Shown here: piece by piece, positions 12,388 through 57,221 of the stretch
Layout of the letters: each line of letters starts with the position of its first letter
Numbering within the stretch: the stretch's first letter is position 1
Assembly (NCBI GenBank): GCA_951406725.2
Contig: OX597821.1
Coordinates: forward strand, 38,130,001 to 38,194,000
Direction: 5' to 3'
Length of the DNA stretch: 64,000 nucleotides
From: Octopus vulgaris
Lineage: Eukaryota
Translations under genes and position numbers: made by a program
Notes under the pieces: generated by a model
What the model saw: only the letters and a program-made list of their open reading frames with translations
What the model was told of the DNA's origin: nothing
The model's database searches: none

Positions 12388-12450
12388 TTGTATATAAATA
12401 TATATATGTATATAAATTGATCAAAATAAAAACATGATGCCAAGGATTCA

Positions 12451-12528
12451 GCGGTACATATGTTTCGGGCCTTTATTAGACAGATTTATAACAATGCATA
12501 ATGTTTGTCTGTGGCCTTCTTCAGCCGC
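12451..12528 (-). ncRNA. Type I hammerhead ribozyme (inverted copy of 13233-13310)
   Basis: Reverse complement of the same motif; stem II GGCC/GGCC. Confidence 0.75.
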
Positions 12529-13232
12529 GCACAACAGCTTCCACAAGGACATGTGTTACATCAAAAATTCTAGGTTGGGGATGCAAATCCTCTCATTCGC
12601 GTACGACATAATGCGGCAGCAGCATAGAATTGAAGCGTCCATCTCTTTCTTCCCTCAATGTAGAATGAGGAAATTTGGATGTTGAAGTAATGTAAGTAAA
12701 TAAATACATATATAGACGTGAAGATGGAGGGGCGAGAATTCAGGACGAGGGATAAAAAATGTATAAAAAGTGTAAGTATAGAAAAATATAAAAATGTAGA
12801 GTATAAAGATATAAAGAGATATAAGGAGATATAAAGGGGATATAAAGAATATAAAGAAATATAAATGAATGTAAAGGCATAAGGTTATAAAGTAAAAATA
12901 GAAATAGAAATAAAAGTAAAAAGTAAAAAAATAAAAATAGGAATAAACATGATAAAAATGTAAAAAAATATAAAGATAAGGGATGTATAGAGGTTACGGA
13001 CCAAACATGGTGGTCAGGAGATTGATAAAATTTAGTTGTAGAAGCTTTGGGTGTCAATAAATCAACAGGGTCGTCTGGGGACCTAGTGTATTGTAAATCA
13101 GAGCTGTTGAGCGGTTAATCTAGTTCTTTGAATTAATTGGTCATCTTGTACATACATACCATCATGGATACATACACCCATATACACGCGCACATATACG
13201 CGTAACACATGTCCTTGTGGAAGCTGTTGTGC

Positions 13233-13310
13233 GCGGCTGAAGAAGGCCACAGACATACATTATGCATTGTTATAAATCTGTCTAATAAAGGTCCGAAACA
13301 TATGTACCGC
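13233..13310 (+). ncRNA. Type I hammerhead ribozyme with extended stem II
   Basis: GCGG CUGAAGA aggcc...ggucc GAAA CAUAUG UA CCGC: stem I GCGG/CCGC, palindromic ACAUAUGU, GUA triplet. Base of stem II is imperfect. Confidence 0.75.
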
Positions 13311-13469
13311 TGAATCCTTGGCATCATGTTTTTATTTTGATCAATTTACTCCACCACCTACACCACCAAACGGTATACACAGGTGCTTATAATTATCAAG
13401 TACTCACCCCGAATTTCTATATATGTATATATATATGTATATATATATATGTGTATATATATATATGTG

Positions 13470-13519
<50 letters not shown>

Positions 13520-14222
13520 TGTATGTATATATATATCTCAGCAAACTCATTCTCCATTCATATTTTCCGCTATTCACCCCCACCAACATATATATATGCA
13601 CGCACACACATACGCACGCAAATATATGCATATTCGGCTATATAAGATTTATAAAGTATCCAGGCATATCACCTTAGACAGAAACACGCACAGAAACACG
13701 TTAAGTAATCCATTACAGTTTTGAATCAACGATGAAGGCTCGACACTTTCGTTGTGTAATGCACAATTTCATTTGTTTATCAGTAATTGGATAGATACTA
13801 GAATCCTTGGTGTGGCGTGAACTTACACACGTCTATATTGAAAATGCCGGATGAGCCTCAAAATTACTTAATGTATGACGCAATCCCTACTCTGTTAAGC
13901 TTACATTAAATAAGGAGATTCTCAGCAAAGCAATTGCCAGAAAATTTAAAACCCGTCCGTTTGTTTCCTCCTACTGCATACACATATTATATATATGTAT
14001 ATATATATATATAAATATATATATAAATATATATATATATATGTATATATATATAACGTGTCGTATTTTTGCCATTTCAATATGGCTAACCCCAAAGGGT
14101 GGATGCTACTGTAGTTTTTAGCCCCAGGAGGACACACTCCTCCAGCTGACCATAGACACACTTTCTGTGTCCTGTCAGTATTTGCAAAGGGAAGTCATCC
14201 TTCCCGTCTTCAACTTATGATA

Positions 14223-14267
14223 CACACGGACTCGAGTTTCGAGGTATTGACCTCTCGTCAGCGTGTG
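14223..14267 (-). ncRNA. Type I hammerhead ribozyme, unit 1 (intact)
   Basis: Minus strand reads CACACG CUGACGA GAGGU caau ACCUC GAAA CUCGAG UC CGUGUG: full core, 6-bp stem I, 5-bp stem II, palindromic stem III ACUCGAGU, GUC cleavage triplet. Confidence 0.93.
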
Positions 14268-14575
14268 ACAATCATAGTTGTCGCCGAGAATTAGATTTCC
14301 TTCACAAATACTTATACTTTTTCCAGCGTCCACTGTCGCTGATAATGAAAAAGTGAAATGAAACAATGATAAATATCAATGTGAGTTATATACAGTAGCG
14401 GTAACACAACGTGTCGTATTTTTGCCATTTCAATATGGCTAACCCCTAAGGGTGGATGCTACTGTAGTTTTTAGCCCCAGGAGGACACACTCCTCCAGCT
14501 GGCCATAGACACACTTTCTGTGTCCTGTCAGTATTTGCAAAGGGAAGTCATCCTTCCCGTCTTCAACTTATGATA

Positions 14576-14620
14576 CACACGGACTCGAGTTTCGAGGTAT
14601 TGACCTCTTGTCAGCGTGTG
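14576..14620 (-). ncRNA. Type I hammerhead ribozyme, unit 2 (G8>A, probably inactive)
   Basis: Same as unit 1 except the core reads CUGACAA (plus strand cctcttgtcag). Confidence 0.85.
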
Positions 14621-14927
14621 ACAATCATAGTTGTCGCCGAGAATTAGATTTCCTTCACAAATACTTATACTTTTCCAGCGTCCACTGTCGCTGATAATGA
14701 AAAAGTGAAATGAAACAATGATAAATATCAATGTGAGTTATATACAGTAGCGGTAACACAACGTGTCGTATTTTTGCCATTTCAATATGGCTAACCCCTA
14801 AGGGTGGATGCTACTGTAGTTTTTAGCCCCAGGAGGACACACTCCTCCAGCTGGCCATAGACACACTTTCTGTGTCCTGTCAGTATTTGCAAAGGGAAGT
14901 CATCCTTCCCGTCTTCAACTTATGATA

Positions 14928-14972
14928 CACACGGACTCGAGTTTCGAGGTATTGACCTCTCGTCAGCGTGTG
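14928..14972 (-). ncRNA. Type I hammerhead ribozyme, unit 3 (intact)
   Basis: Identical motif to unit 1. Confidence 0.93.
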
Positions 14973-15280
14973 ACAATCATAGTTGTCGCCGAGAATTAGA
15001 TTTCCTTCACAAATACTTATACTTTTTCCAGCGTCCACTGTCGCTGATATTGAAAAAGTGAAATCAAACAATGATAAATATCAATGTGAGTTATATACAG
15101 TAGCGTTAACACAACGTGTCGTATTTTTGCCATTTCAATATGGCTAATCCCTAAGGGTGGATGCTACTGTAGTTTTTAGCCCCAGGAGGACACACTCCTC
15201 CAGCTGGCCATAGACACACTTTCTGTGTCCTGTCAGTATTTGCAAAGGGAAGTCATCCTTCCCGTCTTCAACTTATGATA

Positions 15281-15325
15281 CACACGGACTCGAGTTTCGA
15301 GGTATTGACCTCTCGTCAGCGTGTG
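15281..15325 (-). ncRNA. Type I hammerhead ribozyme, unit 4 (intact)
   Basis: Identical motif to unit 1. Confidence 0.93.
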
Positions 15326-15541
15326 ACAATCATAGTTGTCGCCGAGAATTAGATTTCCTTCACAAATACTTATACTTTTTCCAGCGTCCACTGTCGCTGA
15401 TATTGAAAAAGTGAAATCAAACAATGATAAATATCAATGTGAGTTATATACAGTAGCGGTAACACATCAGCGACAGTGGACGCTGGAAAAAGTATAAGTA
15501 TTTGTGAAGGAAATCTAATTCTCGGCGACAACTATGATTGT

Positions 15542-15586
15542 CACACGCTGACGAGAGGTCAATACCTCGAAACTCGAGTCCGTGTG
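15542..15586 (+). ncRNA. Type I hammerhead ribozyme in the inverted unit (intact, sense to the PTP pre-mRNA)
   Basis: cacacg ctgacga gaggt caat acctc gaaa ctcgag tc cgtgtg read directly on the plus strand. Confidence 0.93.
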
Positions 15587-15770
15587 TATCATAAGTTGAA
15601 GACGGGAAGGATGACTTCCCTTTGCAAATACTGACAGGACACAGAAAGTGTGTCCTCATGGGGCTAAAAACTACAGTAGCATCCACCCTTAGGGGTTAGC
15701 CATATTGAAATGGCAAAAATACGACACGTTGTGTTACCGCTACTGTATATAACTCACATTGATATTTATC

Positions 15771-15820
<50 letters not shown>

Positions 15821-15877
15821 CATATATGTATATATATATATACATATATATATATATAGAAGGAGCTTAGACTAGTA

Positions 15878-15910
<33 letters not shown>

Positions 15911-16634
15911 TTATATATATATTTATATATATATATATATACATATATATAATATGTGTATGCAATAGGAGGAAACAAACGGACGGGTTTAAAATTTTCT
16001 GGCAATTGCTTTGCTGAGAATCTCCTTATTTAATGTAAGCTTAACAGAGTAGGGATTGCGTCATACATTAAGTAATTTTGAGGCTCATCCGGCATTTTCA
16101 ATATAGACGTGTGTAAGTTCACGCCACACCAAGGATTCTAGTATTTATCTAATTACTGATAAACAAATGAAATTGTGCATTACACAACAAAAGTGTCGAG
16201 CCTTCATCGTTGATTCAAAACTGTAATGGATTACTTAACGTGTTTCTGTCTAAGGTGATATGCCTGGATACTTTATAAATCTTATATAGCCGAATATGCA
16301 TATATTTGCGTGCGTATGTGTGTGCGTGCATATATATATGTTGGTGGGGGTGAATAGCGGAAAATATGAATGGAGAATGAGTTTGCTGAGATCATGCAAT
16401 TTATTGAATGACCTTGCCATCACTTGGAGTATTTGCCTCTAAATCCAACGCCGAGCATAACGTCATTATCGTTAACATCATAACTGTTTTGTTAGTCTTG
16501 GCACTGATGCTATTTTCCCTCTATTGTAATTATGTCTTCTAATTTATTATTATTATTATTGCTGTTTTTTATTATTACATTAGTTTTCTAATAATAATAA
16601 TAATAATAATAATAATGATAATAATAATAATAAT

Positions 16635-23185: not shown

Positions 23186-24244
23186 TATATACACATAAAA
23201 GTGGGCATAGTAACGTGCATCCTGCAACCGAAAACGGGATCAGTATTAGGTGTACTGAAATATTATTCGTAACGAATAACATTCGAGATACTTTTAGTGC
23301 AGTTTTAAAAGAATTCTGGGAATGAAACAAATTTCACTATAATGAAAAACCATTCTTTTGGTATTCGCTTTGACGGATTTTCACCTGTGTGTGAATGTAT
23401 TTATTTATTTATTTATTTTTGAAACCCAAAGCAATCCAAGCCATAAAAATTAATAATACAGGTTAATGGTTTCTACCTTTACCTGACATTTCGATATTTC
23501 AGGGTTAGGCTTCCTCTCTTTACCTTCAGTTCGCATTTGATCAAGCTGACCAAGCAGATACAGTTTGGTTTGTAATCTTCAATGCTTGCTTTCTAAGGTA
23601 GCAAAGTGTGGTTTCGGGTAAGATATCACTGCTATTTTTAGCAGGTCATGGGGACATGTAGAAATGCCATTGTCGGCTCTCTCTCTATATATATATCTAT
23701 AGCAGTTTATTTGTAGCACTGCTGTCACTAGGATTCACCGTAAATTTCTTACTTACTATCAGCTCCCTGTCAGTTTGTCTAAACACGCATCGCCGTGGTT
23801 ATCTATTTGTCTCCGTTTTCTTTGTTTCTCCCCGGAGCTTTGTCACTATGTCACGCATACACACTTGCCTACGCTCTCTCATGCGCGCACAGACACATAC
23901 AAACACACTCTCACACGCAGAGACACACACTCTAACATATACACTCACACACACCTAAGCATTCTTTTTATATGTCACCTGCTGGTTGTTTCTCCTCTTT
24001 CTCCTCCTCGTCGCTGTCCGCCTGTTTGCAGTCGGCTGCTTGCTCTTTTCATTATCGCACTTATCTCAATTTACTTTTATATCTATTTCAACTACAAACT
24101 CATTCTCCTGCATCGTTGTTGAATGTCTCGACTTCTGTGTCGTCTCTCTATACATCCATGACTCCAAGCCTTTGTTGAGATATTTTCTGTATATTTAGCA
24201 ACCCTAATCCATTGTTTGTCGAAATGTTAGCCACCACGTGAAGG

Positions 24245-24460
24245 CTGGCAGAAACGTTAGCACGCCGGTCGAAATGCTTATCGGTATTTCGTCTGCCGTT
24301 ACGTTCTGAGTTCGAATTCCGCCGAGGTCGACTTTGCCTTTCATCCTTTCGGGGTCGATTAAATAAGTACCAGTTACGTACCGGGGTCGATGTAATCGAC
24401 TTAATCCCTTTGTCCTTGTTTGCCCCCTCTATGTTTAGCCCCCTGTAGGCAATAAAGAAG
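24245..24460 (+). mobile_element. SINE family A
   Basis: Near-identical to 1096-1326. Confidence 0.9.
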
Positions 24461-24984
24461 TAAATATTTTCTCATCTTTTCATCCGAAATGGTCGAAAGA
24501 TATTTCTCCTGACATCTTTTAAAGTTTCCGAGTAATTCTTGGTTAAAGTTTCTAATCAAATTCGCACATGTAAAACTCAAACTATTCATGGTGAGAGACT
24601 TTGAGAAAGAAATTTTTTTTTTTTTTTTTATCTCTAGCAATCTCTGATTTTTCCCTTTCTCTTTCTTGTAGGCAAGGGATACTCGGTGACCATATTTCTT
24701 AGTAGCCTAGTCTATTAGGAATAAGGATTTCTACATTGTTAAGAATATTGTTGGGTTTCTTGATTTAAAATGTCATAATCACAGAAGATTATGAGAACCT
24801 GTAGACATGCTTGGTGAAAGGTATACACACAAGTTCAGCTATTTCCAGGCTACGAACGTACTCCGATTGGAGTGGGACATTTCACTTCGTTGTGGATTGT
24901 GAGCTCATAACGAAAGCATAAGATTTTGTGGCAATGAACTTATTATTACTGGTTCAATCATATACGATACCTACTCTTTCGTTG

Positions 24985-44537: not shown

Positions 44538-45295
44538 AGAATCGTTAGTGCGCCCGGCGAAATGCTTAGCGGTATTTCGTCTGCGTTACGTTGTGTTCAA
44601 TTCCGCCGAGGTCGACTTTGCCTTTCATCCTTTCGGGGTCGATAAATTAAGTACCAGTTACGAACTGGGGTCGATGTAATCGACTTAATACCTATGTCTG
44701 TCCTTGTTTGTTCCCTCTGTGTTTAGCCCCTTGTTGGTGATAAAGAAATAGGTATTTCGTCTGCTGTTACGTTCTGAGTTCAAATTCCGCCGAGGTCGAC
44801 TTTGCCTTTCATCCTTTCGGGGTCGATTAAATAAGTATCAGCTACGCACTGGAGCCGATATAATCTACTTAATCCGTCTGTCTGTCCTTGTTTGTCTCCT
44901 CTGTGTTTATCCCCTTGTGTGTAGTAAAGAAATAGGTATTTCGTCTGCCACTACGTTCTCAGTTAAATTTCCGCAGAGGTCGACTTTGTCTTTCATCCTT
45001 TCGGAGTCGATAAATTAAGTACTAGTTACGCACTGGGGGTCGATATAATCGACTTAATCCGTCTGTCTGTCCTTATTTGTCTCCTCTGTGTTTAGCCCCT
45101 TGTGGGTAGTAAAGAAATGGGTATTTCGTCTGCCACTACGTTCTGAGTTCAAATTCCGTCGAGGTCGACTTTGCCTTTCATTCTTTCTGGGTCGATAAAT
45201 TAAGTACCAGTTACGCACTGGTGTCGATGTAATCGACTTAACCATTTGTCTGCCTTTGTCCCCTCTATGTTTAACCTATTGTGGGCAATAAAGAA

Positions 45296-45297
<2 letters not shown>
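44538..45297 (+). mobile_element. Tandem array of four family A SINE bodies (~180-185 bp units)
   Basis: Units gtatttcgtctg...aagaaat begin at ~44572, 44752, 44936 and 45121; only the first has part of the 5' head. Confidence 0.92.
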
Positions 45298-48695: not shown

Positions 48696-50228
48696 GTTTG
48701 GTTCAATGCACGCCGGGATATTAGAATGCAAAAGAAGGACATAAGTTCAAACATGTTCAGTGCCATACACATATTTGATGTTGTTTGTTTCTTTTCTAAT
48801 ATTCTTGATATGAACTCCTGGCGATTGACTTGCATCTGATTAATTCTTCATTCTCCGATTATTCATTACCTTATAATTATTGACCCAGCAACACCTTCAA
48901 GTTCCGAGGTGAAGAAATATTGCTGTATTCACAAGAATCTGGCAAATACTGACATAACATTGCCGCATGTTAAATACCTCATATTTCAAATACAACTTCA
49001 AATAAAACATGGCGGTATGACGCAGTCAGAGAATATTATTCTGCCTTTTGTATTTCATAGATCGATATCAAAGTATATAAGTTAGTGATTTTTCTTGATA
49101 GTAGACCTTTCTGCTATGATCACTCTCCATTTGAATATAGAATTGTCACCTTGTGCTAAACGTGTACATCTGGGAAAAAGAACAAATTTCTTAGACTTGA
49201 GACCAAGTATTAAAAACTTATCACTTATTGATTGAGGTCTTAACTTTCTAAACTATTGTTATTAATTATCAGTAATTACATGGTTAATGGAAATTGTGAC
49301 TCAAATTAAAAACTTGGTCTCTATTTGAAGTGTTTAATGGCGCCAATAAATATGCAGAGTATCACTAGCGTACGATGAGAAAAGGAAATATGGCAAATGA
49401 TAGGTAAAGAGTGAAGATTAATGTCTAAATACTGAAAGTAAAATATCAGAATATTGAAGTTTGTGAATAATAATGTCATTCATTAATGATAATGTTAACC
49501 AGAATTTGAAAAGGAACGCTGAGTGGTTTAGCTGACAAAGCACTTAGTAAAGCAGAGTAAATCAATAGTGATCGAAAGTACGACCCACTTCTTGACTCGT
49601 AATTAAAGATTTACAGACGTTTTCATTGTTAAAGAAAATAATGAGTTTCTTCTGATATATAAGGATTTCAGTCAGCGGTCATATATTGTAAGAAAATGCA
49701 AAACACGATTTTCATCGTCGGCAAACACAAGAAAAATTTATTTGCAACATGAATTGTTTAATTAACCTACCAATGAGGGATTCAAATACATTTATCCATC
49801 CATAGAAACGTTTGAATATTGATACCATATGTCTCCAGCGAGCTTCACACAAAAAATTCCTTCTATATTATTTTATATCAGCTATATCGATTTATTTCAT
49901 TATTTTATAATATAACATGTTTGTATTGTACTTTTGAACGTTCTAAAATCAGGCAACTTTATACATTGTAGTTTCAATTCCTTTTGATCGTGGGGCATAA
50001 TCCATCGTTTAGAAATTGTAATAGTTTTAAGGAAGAGTTAACATATATTCTGTGGTATTTTAAAACATTATTCATAAGTATACTGAATTCATAGGTTTAT
50101 ATCTTACGAAGTAAATTCGAACACGTCTTGCGACTATTAAATCAATATTTTACCAGAATGACGATTGATTAGTCATTGACATTGAATAGAGATGCTTCAA
50201 TCCTTGACTAGTATTGAGTTAAAGATAA

Positions 50229-50461
50229 AGGCGGCGAGCTGGCAGAAACGTTAGAACGCAGGGCGAAATGCTGAGCGGTATTTTGTCTGCCGCTACGTTC
50301 TGAGTTCAAATTTCGCCGAGGTCGATTTTGCTTTTCATCCTTTCGGGGTCGATAAATTAAGTACCAGTTACGCACAGGGGTCGATATAATCGACTTAATC
50401 CGTTTGTCTGTCCTTGTTTTCCTCTCTGTGTTTAGCCTCTTGTGGGTAGTAAAGAAATAGA
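50229..50461 (+). mobile_element. SINE family A, full length
   Basis: Near-identical to 1096-1326. Confidence 0.92.
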
Positions 50462-52503
50462 TACTCTTCATGATTCAGAGATATCTATTGTCCTCAACTA
50501 GAAATTTTACTTTATCACAGTTTCATTTTCTTTTCTTTTTTTATATTTTGCTTATGACGACGTTTGAATGTGGAGACCGCGTCAACTAGTTTCCATTTAC
50601 TTATGGTACCCATTAAGAGTAGTAAGTGCACGGCACCTTTTCGCGAATTTAACACAACAAAATACAAGCCATCGTTTCTTCGGTATGGAAGCTGGTATAT
50701 TAATATATCTCTCAACTCTCTCGACTATCGATTAATATAGAAAACATTCAGATATAAGTTAGTCTGGCTTGTCGTCATATTTTTGTCAGCCAAACTCTTT
50801 TGTATTTTGTGATGTCTTGGATGTACTTTAAAACATCTTTTATAGGAAATAACTTATTTCTTTACAGGGTATTAATATTTAAAAATATGTTCAATAAATT
50901 CCGTAAAAAAATGAGCATATTTCAAGATGATACATTTGAGAACTTTATAAATTTCATTTACGTTATCCCACCCCGAAGTATGATGGATATAAAAAAAGCC
51001 ATGGAAATTTATGAGTTGAATATAAACTGAGATCGTTACAATGTAATGCTTAACGGTTTGTTTCATGAGCAAAAAAGAAGAAACGGGAGAAATTCTAGAT
51101 GTTCTTTAAATAAACGCTGTTCAGAATATAAAGAAAATCGTGACACTTTTCTTCAGTTATGTCAACAGAAACGCTTCCATAATACCTGTGGCAAGTTTGA
51201 TCGTAAACAAACTTCAGTTCATGCTTCATAATTCCAAGAAATAGATTAAAGTAGATAATGTGTCAGAATTTAGATTAAATTGTGGTAAACGTGTATACCG
51301 TAAATCACCCCACTTTTGTTGGCAGACAATATGTTTATCTCTTCTAGTTTCTGTCTATATAACAAAATTATAGGACATAAGGGATAGGTATGTCAAAATA
51401 GATTTAATATTTTACAAGTGCTGATAGCTTATATAGCTGGGTAGAAACTCGTATTTAGGTAGAATCGTTTACGACATGTTATAATTCCGTGAAATTATTA
51501 CATTCAGATTTCTCAGTGGCACAAAGAACTTAGGTTTCAAGGATTAAAACGACTGAAAAAAAATAGATGCTCCCTTCATATAACAGGGGACATGAGTCCG
51601 CGTTTAGGAACATTTTGAGTAGAAATCATTTGAGCTTTTAAGCTCTTTCCTTCTACTTCCCTAGGTGTCGATGGTAAAAGGAACAAATATCGAGAGTTAC
51701 TATTTCTCTTCGTTATTTCAGTTGATTCTCACGAAAATTAAACGTTATTTAGATTCTGCAGGAACTGTAACTTCCGCAAACTTGCTACTGTGTTAGTCTT
51801 TAACCATTTATACAGTGAGAGGGAGAAAGATAGACAGACACAGCGCGAAAGAGGGAGAGAGACATCGAGAAAGAGAAAGAGAGTTGGGCAGACGGACAGG
51901 GGGAAGGAGAGAGAGAGAGAGAGAGAGAGAAAGCGCGCGTGTGTGTGTAGTACTGATAGTGTTATATCTTCGTGAATATCTTTACAATTGTTCAGTGGCT
52001 TATTTCTATCCTGTCAGAATATAACATGACATGTTTTGATATGTGACGTCCTTGAACCTGATTCTATGGTTCTATTAGATTAACTTGTATTTTATGTAAG
52101 GTAACGTGTGGAGTGCCTTTGTTTGCTGATGCAGGTGGCCCCTTAAGTCTTCTGTAGTTAGGTTAATTGCTGTATTACTCTTTGAGGGTACTATAAATAA
52201 TCTTGCTATCGTTTTATTGTTATTTGTCGTTGTTTTCAAGCAATTCTCTTGTCTCATTCTTGGAAATATTGTCTGCATGCACGATAGTTGTTGATACTAT
52301 TTTCTGGCAAGTTATTGTCCCTACTGTTTCAGACGATGTGTTCATTCTGATGGGGTTAGGTAGCATTAATAACCCCATGGTTATTAAAAGGGAGTTAACC
52401 ATTGCTTTCATAGAATGTCTTTGATATGTTCCCCCAAAATGATAATGATTTGACATAACACATTACAAGCTCTGGCGTCTATCTATCTGTATATCTATCT
52501 ATC

Positions 52504-53399: not shown

Positions 53400-55954
53400 G
53401 AAGGCTGCTAACGATAGTTTTTCATAATAAACGGGGTCCTTTCGTTTTTTACTTCGAATATTGGATTCTAAATTTTTAAATGGAGAAATGATCTGATTTT
53501 CAGCAACTGTCATTCTAAAAATTTATTCGGCTGAAATACGAAGGCAATTACTTCCACGTTCTTAATCAGAAAATCCTTTGGAACGTGACTTTTCGCAGTG
53601 AAATACAATAAAATCAATGGGGAAATATCTTAGACCACACCGCTTTGATAGGGGACAGACTTGAAAACTAAATTCCTAAATTTTCCCGTTGAATTCCCAC
53701 ACTAAAGTGAACACCAACAGTTTCATTCTCCTTCCGAGTTTTATTTCACCAGCTATATTACAAACTGTTTTTACTGCAGTTCTTACTTTAGGTCACTTCA
53801 TTAAACATCTGAAACCGTTTTTCTACAGCCACAATTGCATTCACAGAAACATCGACAAGAAGAAGACTGTTACATCAAATTCCTACGCAACCTGGCCAGA
53901 CATCGTCACTTTGAGGCTATAATTCTTGTAATGCATTAGGGATTCATTAATTTCCAGGATCTTCTCTGTCCATATTAAACAAAGAACCACTGAGAATTCC
54001 TATTGAATTTTAACGAACAGTCACTGAAGCTTGTTCCCTGTATGTATGCTGCTTAGAGAAATACAAACGCTTTCAAGCAATCTTCCCTCCGCAATATTCT
54101 AGAACTGCAGCAGAAACGAGAGTCTTGTAGCACCTAGCAATGGGCACCCTGCTGTAGACACAACGAAATTAATCAATGAACGGAGATGTGCCTTTCTGCT
54201 GAACTCTAAGTGTTCTGTTAGTCCAGCAAAGAAATACACTTGCCACACATCGAAATGATGTGTCTGTTGTTGCTACTTCCAGTTCGGGTTGAATCTGTTC
54301 ATCCAAACCACAAAGAGCTTTTCATATATGTGGGGTTATTCAGTTCCCAGCTAACCCTGTAAAGGCATACTTTTATGGTTGTTCCGTCTTATCACTAAGT
54401 CCGTACATTGCTGCTGCCATTACTTGGAAGCCTAATCCAATTTGCTCGGAAAATTTTCTTGATGTAACGATAATCGATTTGCTAACTTTTGTCATAATCA
54501 ACAAAGGTTGCACAGCAGGCCTTCTTGTGAATTGAGAAGGCAGTCAGTAACAGTGATAATTTTCTTCTTAAACAGTTACATGACATTCGTTGCAGAAAAT
54601 AGCAAAACTTGGAAGTCTATATTCATAATTACTTCTGTGAAAACATCGCTAAGAGTGCAATTATGTAATATTTCTACTTCAACCAATCACGAATGAGAGG
54701 ACTGAAATATTTCTTACACGTTGCACGTCCAATTGAATAACTAAGTCAAGGCAAAAATCATTGATTCTCATTTTATTATGGACCAGTAATAACTCAAATT
54801 ATATATATTTTTTCTTTCAGCAACCTGCGATCATAAATATGCACTTTTATCTGCATATCTAAATATAGAAATCACTGTTTAGAAGCTTAGAAAAATGCTT
54901 CGGCAGTGAGGATTTTTGTCCAATAAATTATACAAACAAACAATTTTCTTTCTCGGAATATCTATAAAAACTCCAGAAATGTTTCTGTATTACAGTATGA
55001 ATTTGATGAATTTGTATTAATTTAGACAAGATATTAGTTCAGGTGATAAGCGTAGATATACATTCAGAAATACTTTTCTACAAATGTGCCTATCTACCCG
55101 CTGATCTACCTATCGAGACAAAAAGCATGTGTTTATCTAAACCTACCTACCTACCTACCTAACCATCTATCTCTCTTTCTGTGTGTACACACACACACAT
55201 ACATACACACATATATATATATAACAGGTATGTACAGGTGTTCTATTGTACAAGCTTCAATTCGTCTAAGAACGAAAACTTTTTCACTTAAGTGCTCATC
55301 AAGAAATGCTAAATGTAAAAATTAATTGGAACTTTGACAATAATATCGATGTGAAAGAAACATTGAAATGGAAAAATCGGAAATGATATAAACATGCATT
55401 GATATGTATATATGAGAGTAGAAGTTGCTGAACCTGTAGCGTAGTTGATGCATTCATTCGACCTGAGAGAGATACTGGGGGAGCTTTTTCTTTCTGGAAA
55501 TATAATAATTTTATTTAAATGTATATGTGTACGTGTGTCTCTCATTCTTTCTCTTTGTCTGTCTGCCCCCGCCCTCCCTCTCTCTCTCTCGATACACACA
55601 CACAGAGTCACTTTCGTTCAGATATGTATACTTTAATGATGATTATGGTTCTTGAGAACGAAACAACTGTTAAAAGAAAAGCAGTCGTGTCCGCCTTTTC
55701 CTGTCACACAAAAGGAAGAAATTCCTTTCCACATCAGTGACCTGACAATAATATCAGATCTTTTATAAGGTAACGCTCAAAATGGCCACAAGGAAAATGG
55801 AAAATATCTTGTTATTAAATAATGTCTCTTCATATTAAAATATGTGTAAAATGTTGTGTGATATTGATAATGTGTGACCATTGAATTTAACAATTGAAAT
55901 AATACTTTCAGTTTTGATTTTAATCTAATCCCGATACAATTTCCTTTCTTTCAG

Positions 55955-56090
55955 TGCCGGGGTTGGACGCACCGGAACATATATAGCGATCGATGCTCAA
56001 TTAGAGCAAGCCCGCGAGGAAGGAATTGTTGATGTGCATAATTTTGTACAGCATATGAGACGACAGAGGGTCAACATGGTGCAGACTTTG
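55955..56090 (+). CDS. PTP catalytic-domain exon D (P-loop, start of Q-loop)
   Basis: Acceptor ctttcag, donor gtaagt, 136 bp. Completes [10 protein letters not shown], then [38 protein letters not shown]. Phase matches exon C. Confidence 0.97.
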
Positions 56091-57221
56091 GTAAGTGAAA
56101 GGAAATACTTGCATCTTCAGATCTCTTTCAGGACTAGTTTGTGTACCGTTATACTTTTGGCTGGTTGTATACACGTGACAACACTAAATACGCAGTTTTA
56201 GATAATTTTTGACTGTTTGAAATCTAAACTGTAATGCAGAGCCAGTTTAGAATCGATTTTCAGAAATTTTCCTATTCCGAAATTCCATAGTCTGGAACTA
56301 AACCTCCATCTTCTTAAAAGATTGATTCTCAGGAAACCTTCGTTTTCTACGCTATGAAAATAACTGACTGAGTCCTATCCTAAATTTCAGCAAACATTCC
56401 CGCACAACTCTAATCAGGGAAAATGCAGTTACATATTCCATTAAAAATATCTAATTGTAGTTTACCTGAAGAATTATGTTATTTCAAATTAAATGTTTTG
56501 TGATGAGTTCAAAAATGTTCAATTAATTTTGAATTTTAATGTATCTCTGCCTCTGATTAATTAGGAATAAAAGAACTACAAAACAAACAGACACGACAAA
56601 GATATAATTTTAGTCAAGTGAAATTAGTGGCATGTTAGCTTCGATACACTTTATCAACTCTACATCTCTATAAATGATCTTAAGAAAGTAATTTGAAAGG
56701 ATAACTTCAAACTCACGTATTCGTTTAGAATTATCAGATGTGTTGGGTGTTGAAAAACTAATACATCGAAATTTGATACCATTTACTAAGTGTTAAACAG
56801 ATTCAGATAAAGTTGATACACTTTTTCATTGTATTTGTGAATCATTTTATACAAATACAAGGAAACCTCAATCTATTAAAAAAAAAAGAAACTCCTTAAA
56901 TTACTAATTTTTTTTTACTCTGTTAGTGTACTTTAAATATATTTTATGAAGAATTTTTTTTACATTATTTCGTAAGATCATAGCACACCTGATTTACATC
57001 GATGATTTACAGGGATTCATAGATAAAGGTTATAATAAAAAAATTTTTTCTAAGCTCTAACCAAGTTTACTTGATTCCTTTATTGAATAAAGCTGTTCAT
57101 TCATTCCAGTATAGAATAGCACAGCGGCAACAGATTTTTGTACACTAATATTTCAAGAGTTAGAAATAGTTTAAGATATATTTTATAATATATTAGTGAA
57201 GTTACACTACCTTTGGATAAA

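What the first reader, a model, noticed from the sequence alone, without database searches (positions are those of the whole stretch)
14055..15773. Retrozyme-like array: 353-bp tandem units each with a canonical type I hammerhead ribozyme
Seen: four head-to-tail non-coding units and a fifth inverted unit, each with CACACG-CUGACGA-GAGGUcaauACCUC-GAAA-CUCGAG-UC-CGUGUG. Known: animal non-LTR retrozymes and newt/schistosome satellite RNAs are tandem repeats of a few hundred nt. Their type I hammerheads cut multimeric transcripts into monomers that can circularise, and a short palindromic stem III favours dimeric cleavage. Inference: this is a cephalopod retrozyme family. A minus-strand transcript would cleave at 15287|15286 and 14934|14933, releasing a 353-nt monomer or circRNA. 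I cannot tell from the sequence whether the family has been described.
Basis: partly seen in the sequence, partly recalled or inferred. Interest (0 to 1): 0.95.

Follow-up and report, generated by a model that had tools for sequence, protein, structure and literature searches.

The report
Penelope-driven self-cutting RNA repeat family
This is one insertion of a young, non-coding mobile element whose 353-base unit carries a self-cutting RNA, and the shape of its insertions suggests that a Penelope retrotransposon enzyme copies it, probably round and round a small RNA circle, into AT-repeat DNA.

Summary
The repeat and its type I hammerheads are real, with two corrections. Unit 2's ribozyme has a catalytic-core mutation, and the fifth 'unit' is a 308-bp partial inverted arm.

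The array is one insertion of a young, dispersed, non-coding family (418 exact ribozyme copies; about 2,900 with sister subfamilies). Across 69 loci the insertions show the Penelope-like element (PLE) signature:
- (TA)n targets
- two fixed 3' ends 43-46 nt apart (the 'tail')
- random 5' truncation
- head-to-head inverted arms; 35 of 35 two-ended insertions with typical ends pair one of each end

All units of an insertion, in both arms, share one haplotype (0.5-3% discordance against 29% between loci). Arrays therefore arrive ready-made from one template, most likely by rolling-circle reverse transcription of the circular monomer. Ribozyme stems and the palindromic loop co-vary across subfamilies.

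The unit is not the terminal repeat of any coding PLE examined. The helper is unidentified, though one insertion is fused head-to-head to a young Neptune-type PLE. Cleavage, expression and circularity are not shown.

Verdict: a new member of the known non-LTR retrozymes, with unusually direct genomic evidence for a mobilisation route that the papers read only propose.

The parts
13984..14054 (.). (TA)n target tract, left side
14055..15465 (-). Long arm, four units (1,411-1,412 bp). RNA sense is the minus strand; the 3' end lies at 14055 = fixed start site A (sense position 349-353)
14055..14407 (-). Unit 1; shares two variants with unit 2 that units 3 and 4 lack
14408..14759 (-). Unit 2 (352 bp); ribozyme core mutated (G8>A at 14609), predicted inactive
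14760..15112 (-). Unit 3
15113..15465 (-). Unit 4
14223..14267 (-). Type I hammerhead of unit 1; predicted cut 14229|14228
   Evidence: 32.2 bits; cut position from sequence
14576..14620 (-). Hammerhead of unit 2, core-mutated
   Evidence: no Rfam hit
14928..14972 (-). Type I hammerhead of unit 3; predicted cut 14934|14933
15281..15325 (-). Type I hammerhead of unit 4; predicted cut 15287|15286
14934..15286 (-). Predicted 353-nt cut-to-cut monomer / circle
   Evidence: folds at -120.2 kcal/mol, z -7.1 linear; -115.1, z -5.5 circular
15466..15773 (+). Inverted, 5'-truncated arm (sense 65-353 with a 24-nt deletion, then the tail). Joined head-to-head to the long arm with 1 nt overlap; 3' end at 15773 = fixed start site B
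15542..15586 (+). Type I hammerhead of the inverted arm; predicted cut 15580|15581
   Evidence: cut position from sequence
15731..15773 (+). 43-nt PLE-type 'tail' between start sites A and B, present at one end only
15774..15955 (.). (TA)n target tract, right side
13536..13985 (+). Inverted duplicate of the right-hand flank, bracketed by (TA)n; 5 mismatches in 437 aligned bases, about the age of the insertion
   Evidence: (only these two close copies among 3 hits)
15954..16391 (-). Right-hand flank, inferred to be the original of the duplicate

Best explanation
A non-autonomous non-LTR retrozyme that borrows the reverse transcriptase and GIY-YIG endonuclease of a Penelope-like element. Step 1 (inferred): an array is transcribed as a multimer. 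Neighbouring hammerheads pair through their palindromic loop 3 and cut out 353-nt monomers, which a host ligase closes into circles. Step 2 (strongly inferred from insertion anatomy): a PLE protein nicks both strands of a (TA)n tract. It primes cDNA on the RNA at two fixed internal sites, A (about 174 nt past the ribozyme cut) and B (43-46 nt further), one site for each DNA end. Step 3 (inferred): each cDNA runs through the ribozyme junction and round the circle for up to 6 laps, then stops at random. The two cDNA ends join by short microhomology (head-to-head inverted insertion, tail at one end), or one cDNA joins the target (single arm). The window holds one such event: 4 laps from A and 0.9 lap from B. 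Shown: anatomy, single-template origin, independent synthesis of both arms, structural conservation. Not shown: cleavage, expression, circularity, identity of the helper.
For: Anatomy in 69 independent loci: 102 of 110 outward 3' ends fall on site A (60) or B (42), and 94 of those 102 abut (TA)n. Of 41 two-ended insertions, 35 are A+B, none A+A or B+B, and 6 have one odd end; 35 of 35 mixed has p about 1e-11 if ends were picked independently. The 5' ends scatter over the unit; 1 of 115 lies within 3 nt of the ribozyme cut, and 78 of 115 arms exceed one unit. This matches the PLE signature (Craig preprint passages) and the two internal RT starts that define the tail in vitro (Frangieh 2024). 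Two Neptune-type PLE families with intact 781- and 784-aa RT+GIY-YIG frames in this genome end the same way in (TA)n. Single template: discordance at 8 common polymorphic sites is 5/970 within an arm, 25/795 between arms of one insertion, and 39,041/134,014 between loci. Sixteen rare variants in 12 loci are in every lap covering them; 10 of the 16 occur in no other locus; 13 rare variants are shared by both arms. Of 34 A+B loci only 1 shows lap-specific variation inherited in register. In 6 of 32 simple two-arm insertions neither arm contains the other, so one is not a fold-back copy of the other. Ribozyme under selection: over 22 copies from subfamilies about 72-98% alike, 93.4% of cells pair (shuffled 86.2%, 0/500; slid controls 18-46%), 49 cells change on both sides, and the loop-3 palindrome pairs 22/22 in three forms. 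Sister subfamilies use the same two end sites.
Against: No experiment. No listed run is on record as RNA, and contigs cannot show ends or circularity. No coding PLE sharing the unit's sequence was found among 30 GIY-YIG loci and 20 family-2 loci, out of thousands of candidates. Frangieh 2024 found ribozyme cleavage unnecessary for PLE insertion in vitro, with uncleaved RNA the main substrate, which favours a linear multimer template. L182 shows one lap-specific variant in the register a multimeric template would give, and window units 1-2 differ from 3-4 at two linked sites. The pair G10.1-C11.1 at the base of stem II is unpaired in 15 of 22 aligned copies, all from older subfamilies. The loci were chosen for a near-full unit or an intact ribozyme, which inflates arm lengths. 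Relatedness inflates the covariation score.
Confidence: 0.68

Rival explanations
1. Same PLE-driven twin priming, but the template is an uncleaved linear multimeric transcript of a young, homogeneous donor array. The ribozyme only frees 5' ends or acts rarely.
For: In vitro, PLE insertion uses unprocessed RNA and needs no cleavage. L182 site 159 is inherited in the same-molecule register. Window units split 2+2.
Against: A new mutation in one donor unit stays a one-lap variant when a linear multimer is copied. Yet 16 rare variants in 12 loci fill every lap, and only 1 of 34 loci shows in-register heterogeneity. 5' truncation would also shrink arrays each generation unless a monomer-to-multimer step rebuilt them. 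The whole monomer and the dimer palindrome are conserved.
Confidence: 0.2
2. Single units or PLE terminal-repeat remnants insert first, and the tandem arrays grow later in place by slippage or unequal crossing-over (scenario discussed by Li et al. 2026), with gene conversion homogenising them.
For: Window units 1-2 share two variants (possible later duplication). Eight variants are in some laps only, several in the palindromic register expected of conversion between arms.
Against: Local expansion does not explain multi-unit arms on both sides of an inversion, with fixed A and B ends and random non-integer lengths. Singletons (174) far outnumber partly shared variants (8), so conversion is too weak to explain 23 fully shared ones.
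Confidence: 0.07
3. The unit is simply the terminal repeat (pLTR) of an autonomous coding PLE, and the arrays are truncated pLTR debris.
For: Full PLE anatomy; PLE reading frames lie near 6 loci of this family or its sister subfamilies.
Against: None of 69 young loci or about 50 sister-subfamily loci has the unit as the end repeat of a PLE frame. The nearby PLEs have their own unrelated ends. Past site B the arms run into the next unit, not into an ORF. The one pair of same-strand ribozymes 3.2 kb apart is a minisatellite composite (L181).
Confidence: 0.05

Closest known systems
Non-LTR retrozymes of mussel, coral and axolotl (Cervera and de la Pena 2020, PMC7229834)
   Same: Non-coding tandem units of about 350 bp (mussel 350-390, axolotl 330/353); canonical type I hammerhead with a weak, palindrome-capped helix III (as axolotl HHR_Amex1); GC under 50%; strongly self-paired predicted circle; PLEs in the same genome.
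   Different: There cleavage, expression and circles were shown, and PLE mobilisation was only proposed. Here the RNA is untested but the insertion anatomy points to PLE mobilisation. The main text has 0 occurrences of 'octopus', 'cephalopod' or 'inverted'; its supplement could not be read.
Vertebrate retrozymes as non-autonomous PLE derivatives (Li, Clavereau, Pollet, bioRxiv 10.64898/2026.07.22.740005)
   Same: Same overall conclusion: retrozymes depend on PLEs.
   Different: Their evidence is co-occurrence and pLTR homology in Xenopus (24 of 57 families match known TEs, nearly all PLEs). They discuss arrays as local amplification and leave the mechanism open. Here the arrays are made at insertion, and no homology to a coding pLTR was found.
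Endonuclease-bearing Penelope-like elements (Neptune/Nematis type; Poseidon PAc in Frangieh 2024, PMC11167929)
   Same: AT-rich or (TA)n targets, two internal RT starts bounding a tail, 5' truncation, head-to-head inverted copy, hammerhead upstream of the starts.
   Different: No ORF; canonical rather than minimal hammerhead; whole-unit multimers up to 6 laps; tail of 43-46 nt against about 34 and 40 nt in the two local PLE families.
Newt satellite 2 and schistosome Sm-alpha repeats
   Same: Tandem units with a type I hammerhead that cuts multimers, in newts as dimers (passages).
   Different: Those have described promoters (Pol II and SINE-like); no promoter was identified here.

Membership tests
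non-LTR retrozyme | Short tandem repeats (150-450 bp), dimers to multimers, many dispersed loci | tested here: met
   353-bp units; 2,251 candidates, 40 scored; 418 exact ribozyme copies
non-LTR retrozyme | Canonical type I hammerhead in each unit | tested here: met
   4 of 5 in the window (unit 2 mutated); covariation across subfamilies. Score 32.2 is below Rfam's 34.
non-LTR retrozyme | Non-coding, no LTR, GC under 50% | tested here: met
   no ORF of 90 aa or more; GC 0.42 over 15283-15584; ends abut (TA)n with no LTR pair. PBS/PPT were not searched separately.
non-LTR retrozyme | Monomer predicted highly self-paired | tested here: met
   z -7.1 linear, 0 of 100 shuffles as good; z -5.5 circular, 60 shuffles
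non-LTR retrozyme | Target-site duplication longer than 4 bp when present | tested here: inconclusive
   hidden in (TA)n at most loci; one non-TA insertion, L193, shows a 13-bp duplication (read by eye)
non-LTR retrozyme | Self-cleavage of the transcript | not testable with these tools
   needs in vitro transcription
non-LTR retrozyme | Expressed as linear and circular monomers | tested here: inconclusive
   only contigs of runs guessed to be RNA
autonomous Penelope-like element | RT plus GIY-YIG reading frame | tested here: not met
autonomous Penelope-like element | Unit is the pLTR of a coding element | tested here: not met
   no match to 30 GIY-YIG loci or 20 family-2 loci; only a small part of the genome's PLE candidates was seen
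PLE-mobilised sequence (works like) | Two fixed 3' ends with a 30-45 nt tail at one end only | tested here: met
   102 of 110 ends; 35 of 35 A+B
PLE-mobilised sequence (works like) | Random 5' truncation and head-to-head inverted copy | tested here: met
   41 of 69 loci two-ended; 115 scattered 5' ends
PLE-mobilised sequence (works like) | AT-rich / microsatellite target | tested here: met
   94 of 102 A/B ends in (TA)n

The most novel reading that the evidence does not exclude
Each insertion is a frozen rolling-circle product. One ribozyme-made 353-nt circle is copied from two fixed sites by a dimeric Neptune-type PLE enzyme, one site per DNA end. The circle is recognised by shape or a short tail motif rather than by pLTR homology, so it is a viroid-like RNA parasite of PLEs rather than a pLTR deletion derivative. 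The insertion fused head-to-head to a young Neptune PLE (L222) would then be a mixed event that names the helper enzyme.
Probability: 0.3. Interest if true: 0.78.

Novelty: new member of a known kind. Interest (0 to 1): 0.56.

Why it matters
Animal retrozymes are abundant self-cutting circular RNAs. In the papers read, which enzyme writes them back into the genome, and how their tandem arrays arise, is only proposed (Cervera 2014 and 2020; Li 2026). This young family keeps the insertion scars intact. It gives countable evidence that a Penelope-type enzyme primes twice at a (TA)n cut and builds the whole array from one template in one event. That also bears on how Penelope elements make their own unexplained tandem and inverted structures. 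It supplies a ready test: a 353-nt RNA, two predicted start sites, and intact candidate helper genes in the same genome. A small circle copied into multimers at a defined target could also interest RNA-templated gene-insertion work.

Tried and rejected
Search for the autonomous partner:
- The GIY-YIG family search gave 6,136 candidates, 150 scored and 30 fetched. None of the 30 matches the unit even at word size 7.
- PLE family 2 (20 loci) has its own unrelated ends.
- Two same-strand ribozymes 3.2 kb apart turned out to be a minisatellite composite (L181).
- L188 has a retrozyme just downstream of a different PLE's own end, and L219, L137, L169 and L180 merely lie near PLE fragments. These name no helper.
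- A Pfam accession recalled for a PLE domain is not in the library.
- A further 40 loci could not be fetched, so the frequency of PLE-retrozyme fusions rests on 1 of 69.

RNA evidence:
- No RNA holder was listed; 20 of 24 listed runs (11 studies, 8 organism labels) hold at least half the words.
- Four runs were laid, all contigs. Runs guessed to be RNA hold exact or near-exact pieces across the ribozyme. One 383-nt contig equals the unit plus 30, a closed loop in the assembly graph, which a tandem multimer or DNA would give as well. Not counted as evidence.

Other ideas rejected:
- Rfam miRNA hits at 15283-15584 are artefacts of the long inversion hairpin.
- The flank arms are not a second mobile family: 3 hits in the genome.
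- Fold-back copying cannot be the general source of the inverted arm: 6 of 32 cannot be copies, and 0 of 32 are symmetric at the centre.
- A linear cut monomer is not the template: 57 of 59 A arms and 32 of 42 B arms cross the cut site (a biased sample).
- No promoter was identified; none was scanned for with a tool.

Look-ups with no result:
- Alignments A1 and A2 had mis-oriented or out-of-phase rows and were not used for counts.
- Three look-ups of earlier scan findings returned nothing.
- Lunse et al. on PLE hammerhead dimers is not held.

Full report
OBSERVATION. The window holds four head-to-tail units starting at 14055, 14408, 14760 and 15113 (353, 352, 353, 353 bp; 98.6-99.4% identical to unit 3) and a 308-bp inverted piece at 15466-15773. 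Rfam's type I hammerhead model matches units 1, 3 and 4 on the minus strand and the inverted piece on the plus strand, at 32.2 bits, E 3.9e-5, just under the gathering score of 34. Unit 2 has a G8>A change in the catalytic core (14609) and is not matched. The inverted piece is not a whole unit: it covers sense positions 65-353 with a 24-nt deletion, then runs 43 nt past the point where the long arm ends. No ORF of 90 aa overlaps the array. Both ends lie in (TA)n. The cut-to-cut monomer folds far better than shuffles (z -7.1 linear; z -5.5 circular).

A DISPERSED YOUNG FAMILY. The unit gave 2,251 candidates in the 2.8-Gb genome; the 40 scored were 97-100% identical over full units. The exact 39-nt ribozyme core occurs 418 times, reversed control 0. 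A pattern that frees loop 3 occurs 2,928 times, control 0. Sister subfamilies about 72-87% identical over the whole unit exist.

INSERTION ANATOMY. I examined 71 loci: the 40 best DNA hits plus exact-ribozyme hits on contigs 1-3. I dropped L181 (a minisatellite composite) and L027 (a duplicate of L016), leaving 69. The sample favours long, young copies. Of 110 outward-facing 3' ends, 60 fall at sense 349-353 (site A; positions 1-2 were counted with it), 42 at 41-48 (site B) and 8 elsewhere; 94 of the 102 A/B ends abut (TA)n. Forty-one loci have two outward ends, joined head-to-head: 35 are A+B, none A+A or B+B, and 6 have one odd end. Independence would give about 48% mixed, so 35 of 35 has p about 1e-11. 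The 115 inner 5' ends are scattered, with only 1 within 3 nt of the ribozyme cut. Arms run to 2,121 nt, and 78 of 115 exceed one unit. Most inversion joints overlap by 0-6 nt. Sister subfamilies end at the same two sites. This is the published signature of endonuclease-bearing Penelope-like elements: partial tandems, an inverted 5'-truncated copy, a 30-40 bp tail at one end, and (TA)n targets (Craig et al. preprint, passages; Arkhipova 2013, passages). Frangieh et al. 2024 (parts 1-2 of 4 read) showed that purified PLE protein nicks both strands of AT-rich DNA and starts cDNA at two internal sites that bound the tail. The same genome has coding PLEs of Neptune/Nematis type (zinc-finger linker before the endonuclease; clade assigned from that motif, not from a tree). 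They have intact 781- and 784-aa frames, 67.5% identical to each other, and their copies end at two sites about 40 and 34 nt apart in (TA)n.

ONE TEMPLATE PER INSERTION. At the 8 common polymorphic sites, copies disagree in 5 of 970 comparisons within an arm, 25 of 795 between the two arms of one insertion, and 39,041 of 134,014 between loci (70 loci, L027 still included). Twelve haplotypes occur among 63 loci. Of rare variants at positions covered at least twice, 174 are singletons, 23 are in every covering copy (13 of them in both arms) and 8 are in some. Sixteen variants in 12 loci fill two or more laps of one arm and all other covering copies; 10 of these are seen in no other locus. A mutation in one unit of a linear donor array would stay a one-lap variant, so these need a monomer-to-multimer step. 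Among 34 A+B loci (7,735 in-register site pairs) only L182 shows lap-specific variation inherited in the register of a single multimeric RNA. In 6 of 32 simple two-arm loci neither arm contains the other, so both were made from RNA rather than one from the other. Against this reading stand L182, the 2+2 split of the window's units, and the in vitro finding that PLE insertion prefers uncleaved RNA.

RIBOZYME UNDER SELECTION. On 22 aligned copies from several subfamilies, the hammerhead helices pair in 93.4% of cells (shuffled 86.2%, 0 of 500; slid controls 18-46%), with 49 cells changed on both sides. Helix III is one pair beyond the core, capped by a self-complementary four-base loop. Its outer pair is U-A in 12 copies, C-G in 8 and U-G in 2; its inner pair is C-G in 13 and G-C in 9; it is paired in 22 of 22. 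Some rows were selected by loop sequence. In the pattern search that left the loop free, 77 of the first 100 rows are palindromic, by eye count. This fits the dimeric double-hammerhead described for metazoan ribozymes (Cervera 2014, parts 1-2 of 4 read). The base pair of stem II is mismatched in 15 of 22 rows, all from older subfamilies. Relatedness inflates these counts. Other hairpins of the monomer also co-vary (17 of 60 pairs).

IS IT A pLTR ARRAY? No coding PLE examined carries the unit. Thirty GIY-YIG loci and 20 family-2 loci show no homology, and PLE frames near 6 family or sister loci have their own ends. This covers only a small part of 6,136 GIY-YIG candidates. One locus is suggestive. 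In L222 a retrozyme arm is joined head-to-head, through a 7-nt filler, to a 5'-truncated copy of the young family-2 PLE that ends at its own tail site in (TA)n. That is what a mixed twin-primed event would leave. But the retrozyme arm's 3' end is atypical (sense 100), and two successive insertions could give the same picture.

EXPRESSION. Not established. No listed run is on record as RNA, and only contigs could be laid.

LOCAL FLANK. The insertion is framed by an inverted duplication of about 440 bp of near-unique flank, itself bracketed by (TA)n. It has 5 mismatches in 437, close to the 0.8% between arms. L139 and L102 show the same layout (3 of 68). I infer that both cDNAs were primed from two copies of the same DNA end, or that the palindromic TA end folded back during repair.

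WHAT IS KNOWN. Non-LTR retrozymes were defined by Cervera and de la Pena 2020 (parts 2-4 of 6 and passages read; supplement unreadable). They showed cleavage and circles in coral, mussel and axolotl, and proposed that a PLE RT copies the circle into tandem cDNA. Li et al. 2026 (preprint, parts 1-3 of 5 read; supplements closed) argue from co-occurrence and pLTR homology that they are non-autonomous PLE derivatives, discuss arrays as local amplification, and sample no mollusc. A review (PMC6765202) and PMC7936874 were seen as passages only. Ten literature searches listed no paper that, by title or abstract, describes a cephalopod retrozyme or the insertion ends of any animal retrozyme. The library lacks most subscription papers, Repbase and Dfam were not searchable, and unread supplements could list this family. 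The host taxon was not tested.

VERDICT. A real feature and a new member of a known kind. My confidence is about 0.9 that it is a non-coding family mobilised by PLE enzymes, and about 0.68 for the full model with a circular template. Its value lies in the countable genomic evidence for a mechanism that the papers read only propose, and in the direct test it offers. Interest 0.56.

Noticed in passing
window 12413-13417: A second non-coding family with PLE anatomy (about 860 bp full length, 69-nt tail, (TA)n ends; 2,004 candidates). Of 30 loci, 13 have both end types and 17 only the tailed end that the query selected.
   Followed up: partly
L222:3022-5599 (G000 C17, 47.71 Mb): Retrozyme arm fused head-to-head to a 5'-truncated young Neptune-type PLE; candidate mixed insertion that would name the helper.
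   Followed up: partly
window 13536-13985 and 15954-16391; L139; L102: Inverted duplication of the target flank bracketed by (TA)n, in 3 of 68 insertions.
   Followed up: partly
L097:1081-4781; L247:4545-6896: Neptune-type PLEs with a separate upstream frame (479 aa in L097) before the RT-endonuclease frame, and only degenerate hammerhead-like motifs in their end repeats (read by eye).
   Followed up: no
L181 (G000 C2, 202.40 Mb): Part of the retrozyme unit (sense 56-292) built into a larger repeat made mostly of an A/T-run minisatellite.
   Followed up: partly
tails of the retrozyme and of PLE families 1 and 2 (window 15731-15773; L097; L247): A similar four-base motif lies 17-25 nt upstream of site B in all three; weak and noticed after the fact, but a candidate recognition element.
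   Followed up: no
window 15070-15773: A read-through transcript across the inversion would form a ~300-bp near-perfect hairpin, a possible substrate for small-RNA silencing or A-to-I editing.
   Followed up: no
window 55929-56198 (+): Exon of a protein-tyrosine phosphatase (PF00102, E 7.5e-13); the array may lie in or near this gene.
   Followed up: no
window 44571-45297 and about eight other places (e.g. 985-1333, 24244-24469, 50228-50463): A 184-bp SINE-like repeat, tandem in four copies at 44571-45297.
   Followed up: no
window 13729-13860 and L033: The duplicated flank contains two decayed hammerhead-like motifs (by eye) and has one 69-75% relative on another contig; possibly an old PLE end repeat.
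   Followed up: no
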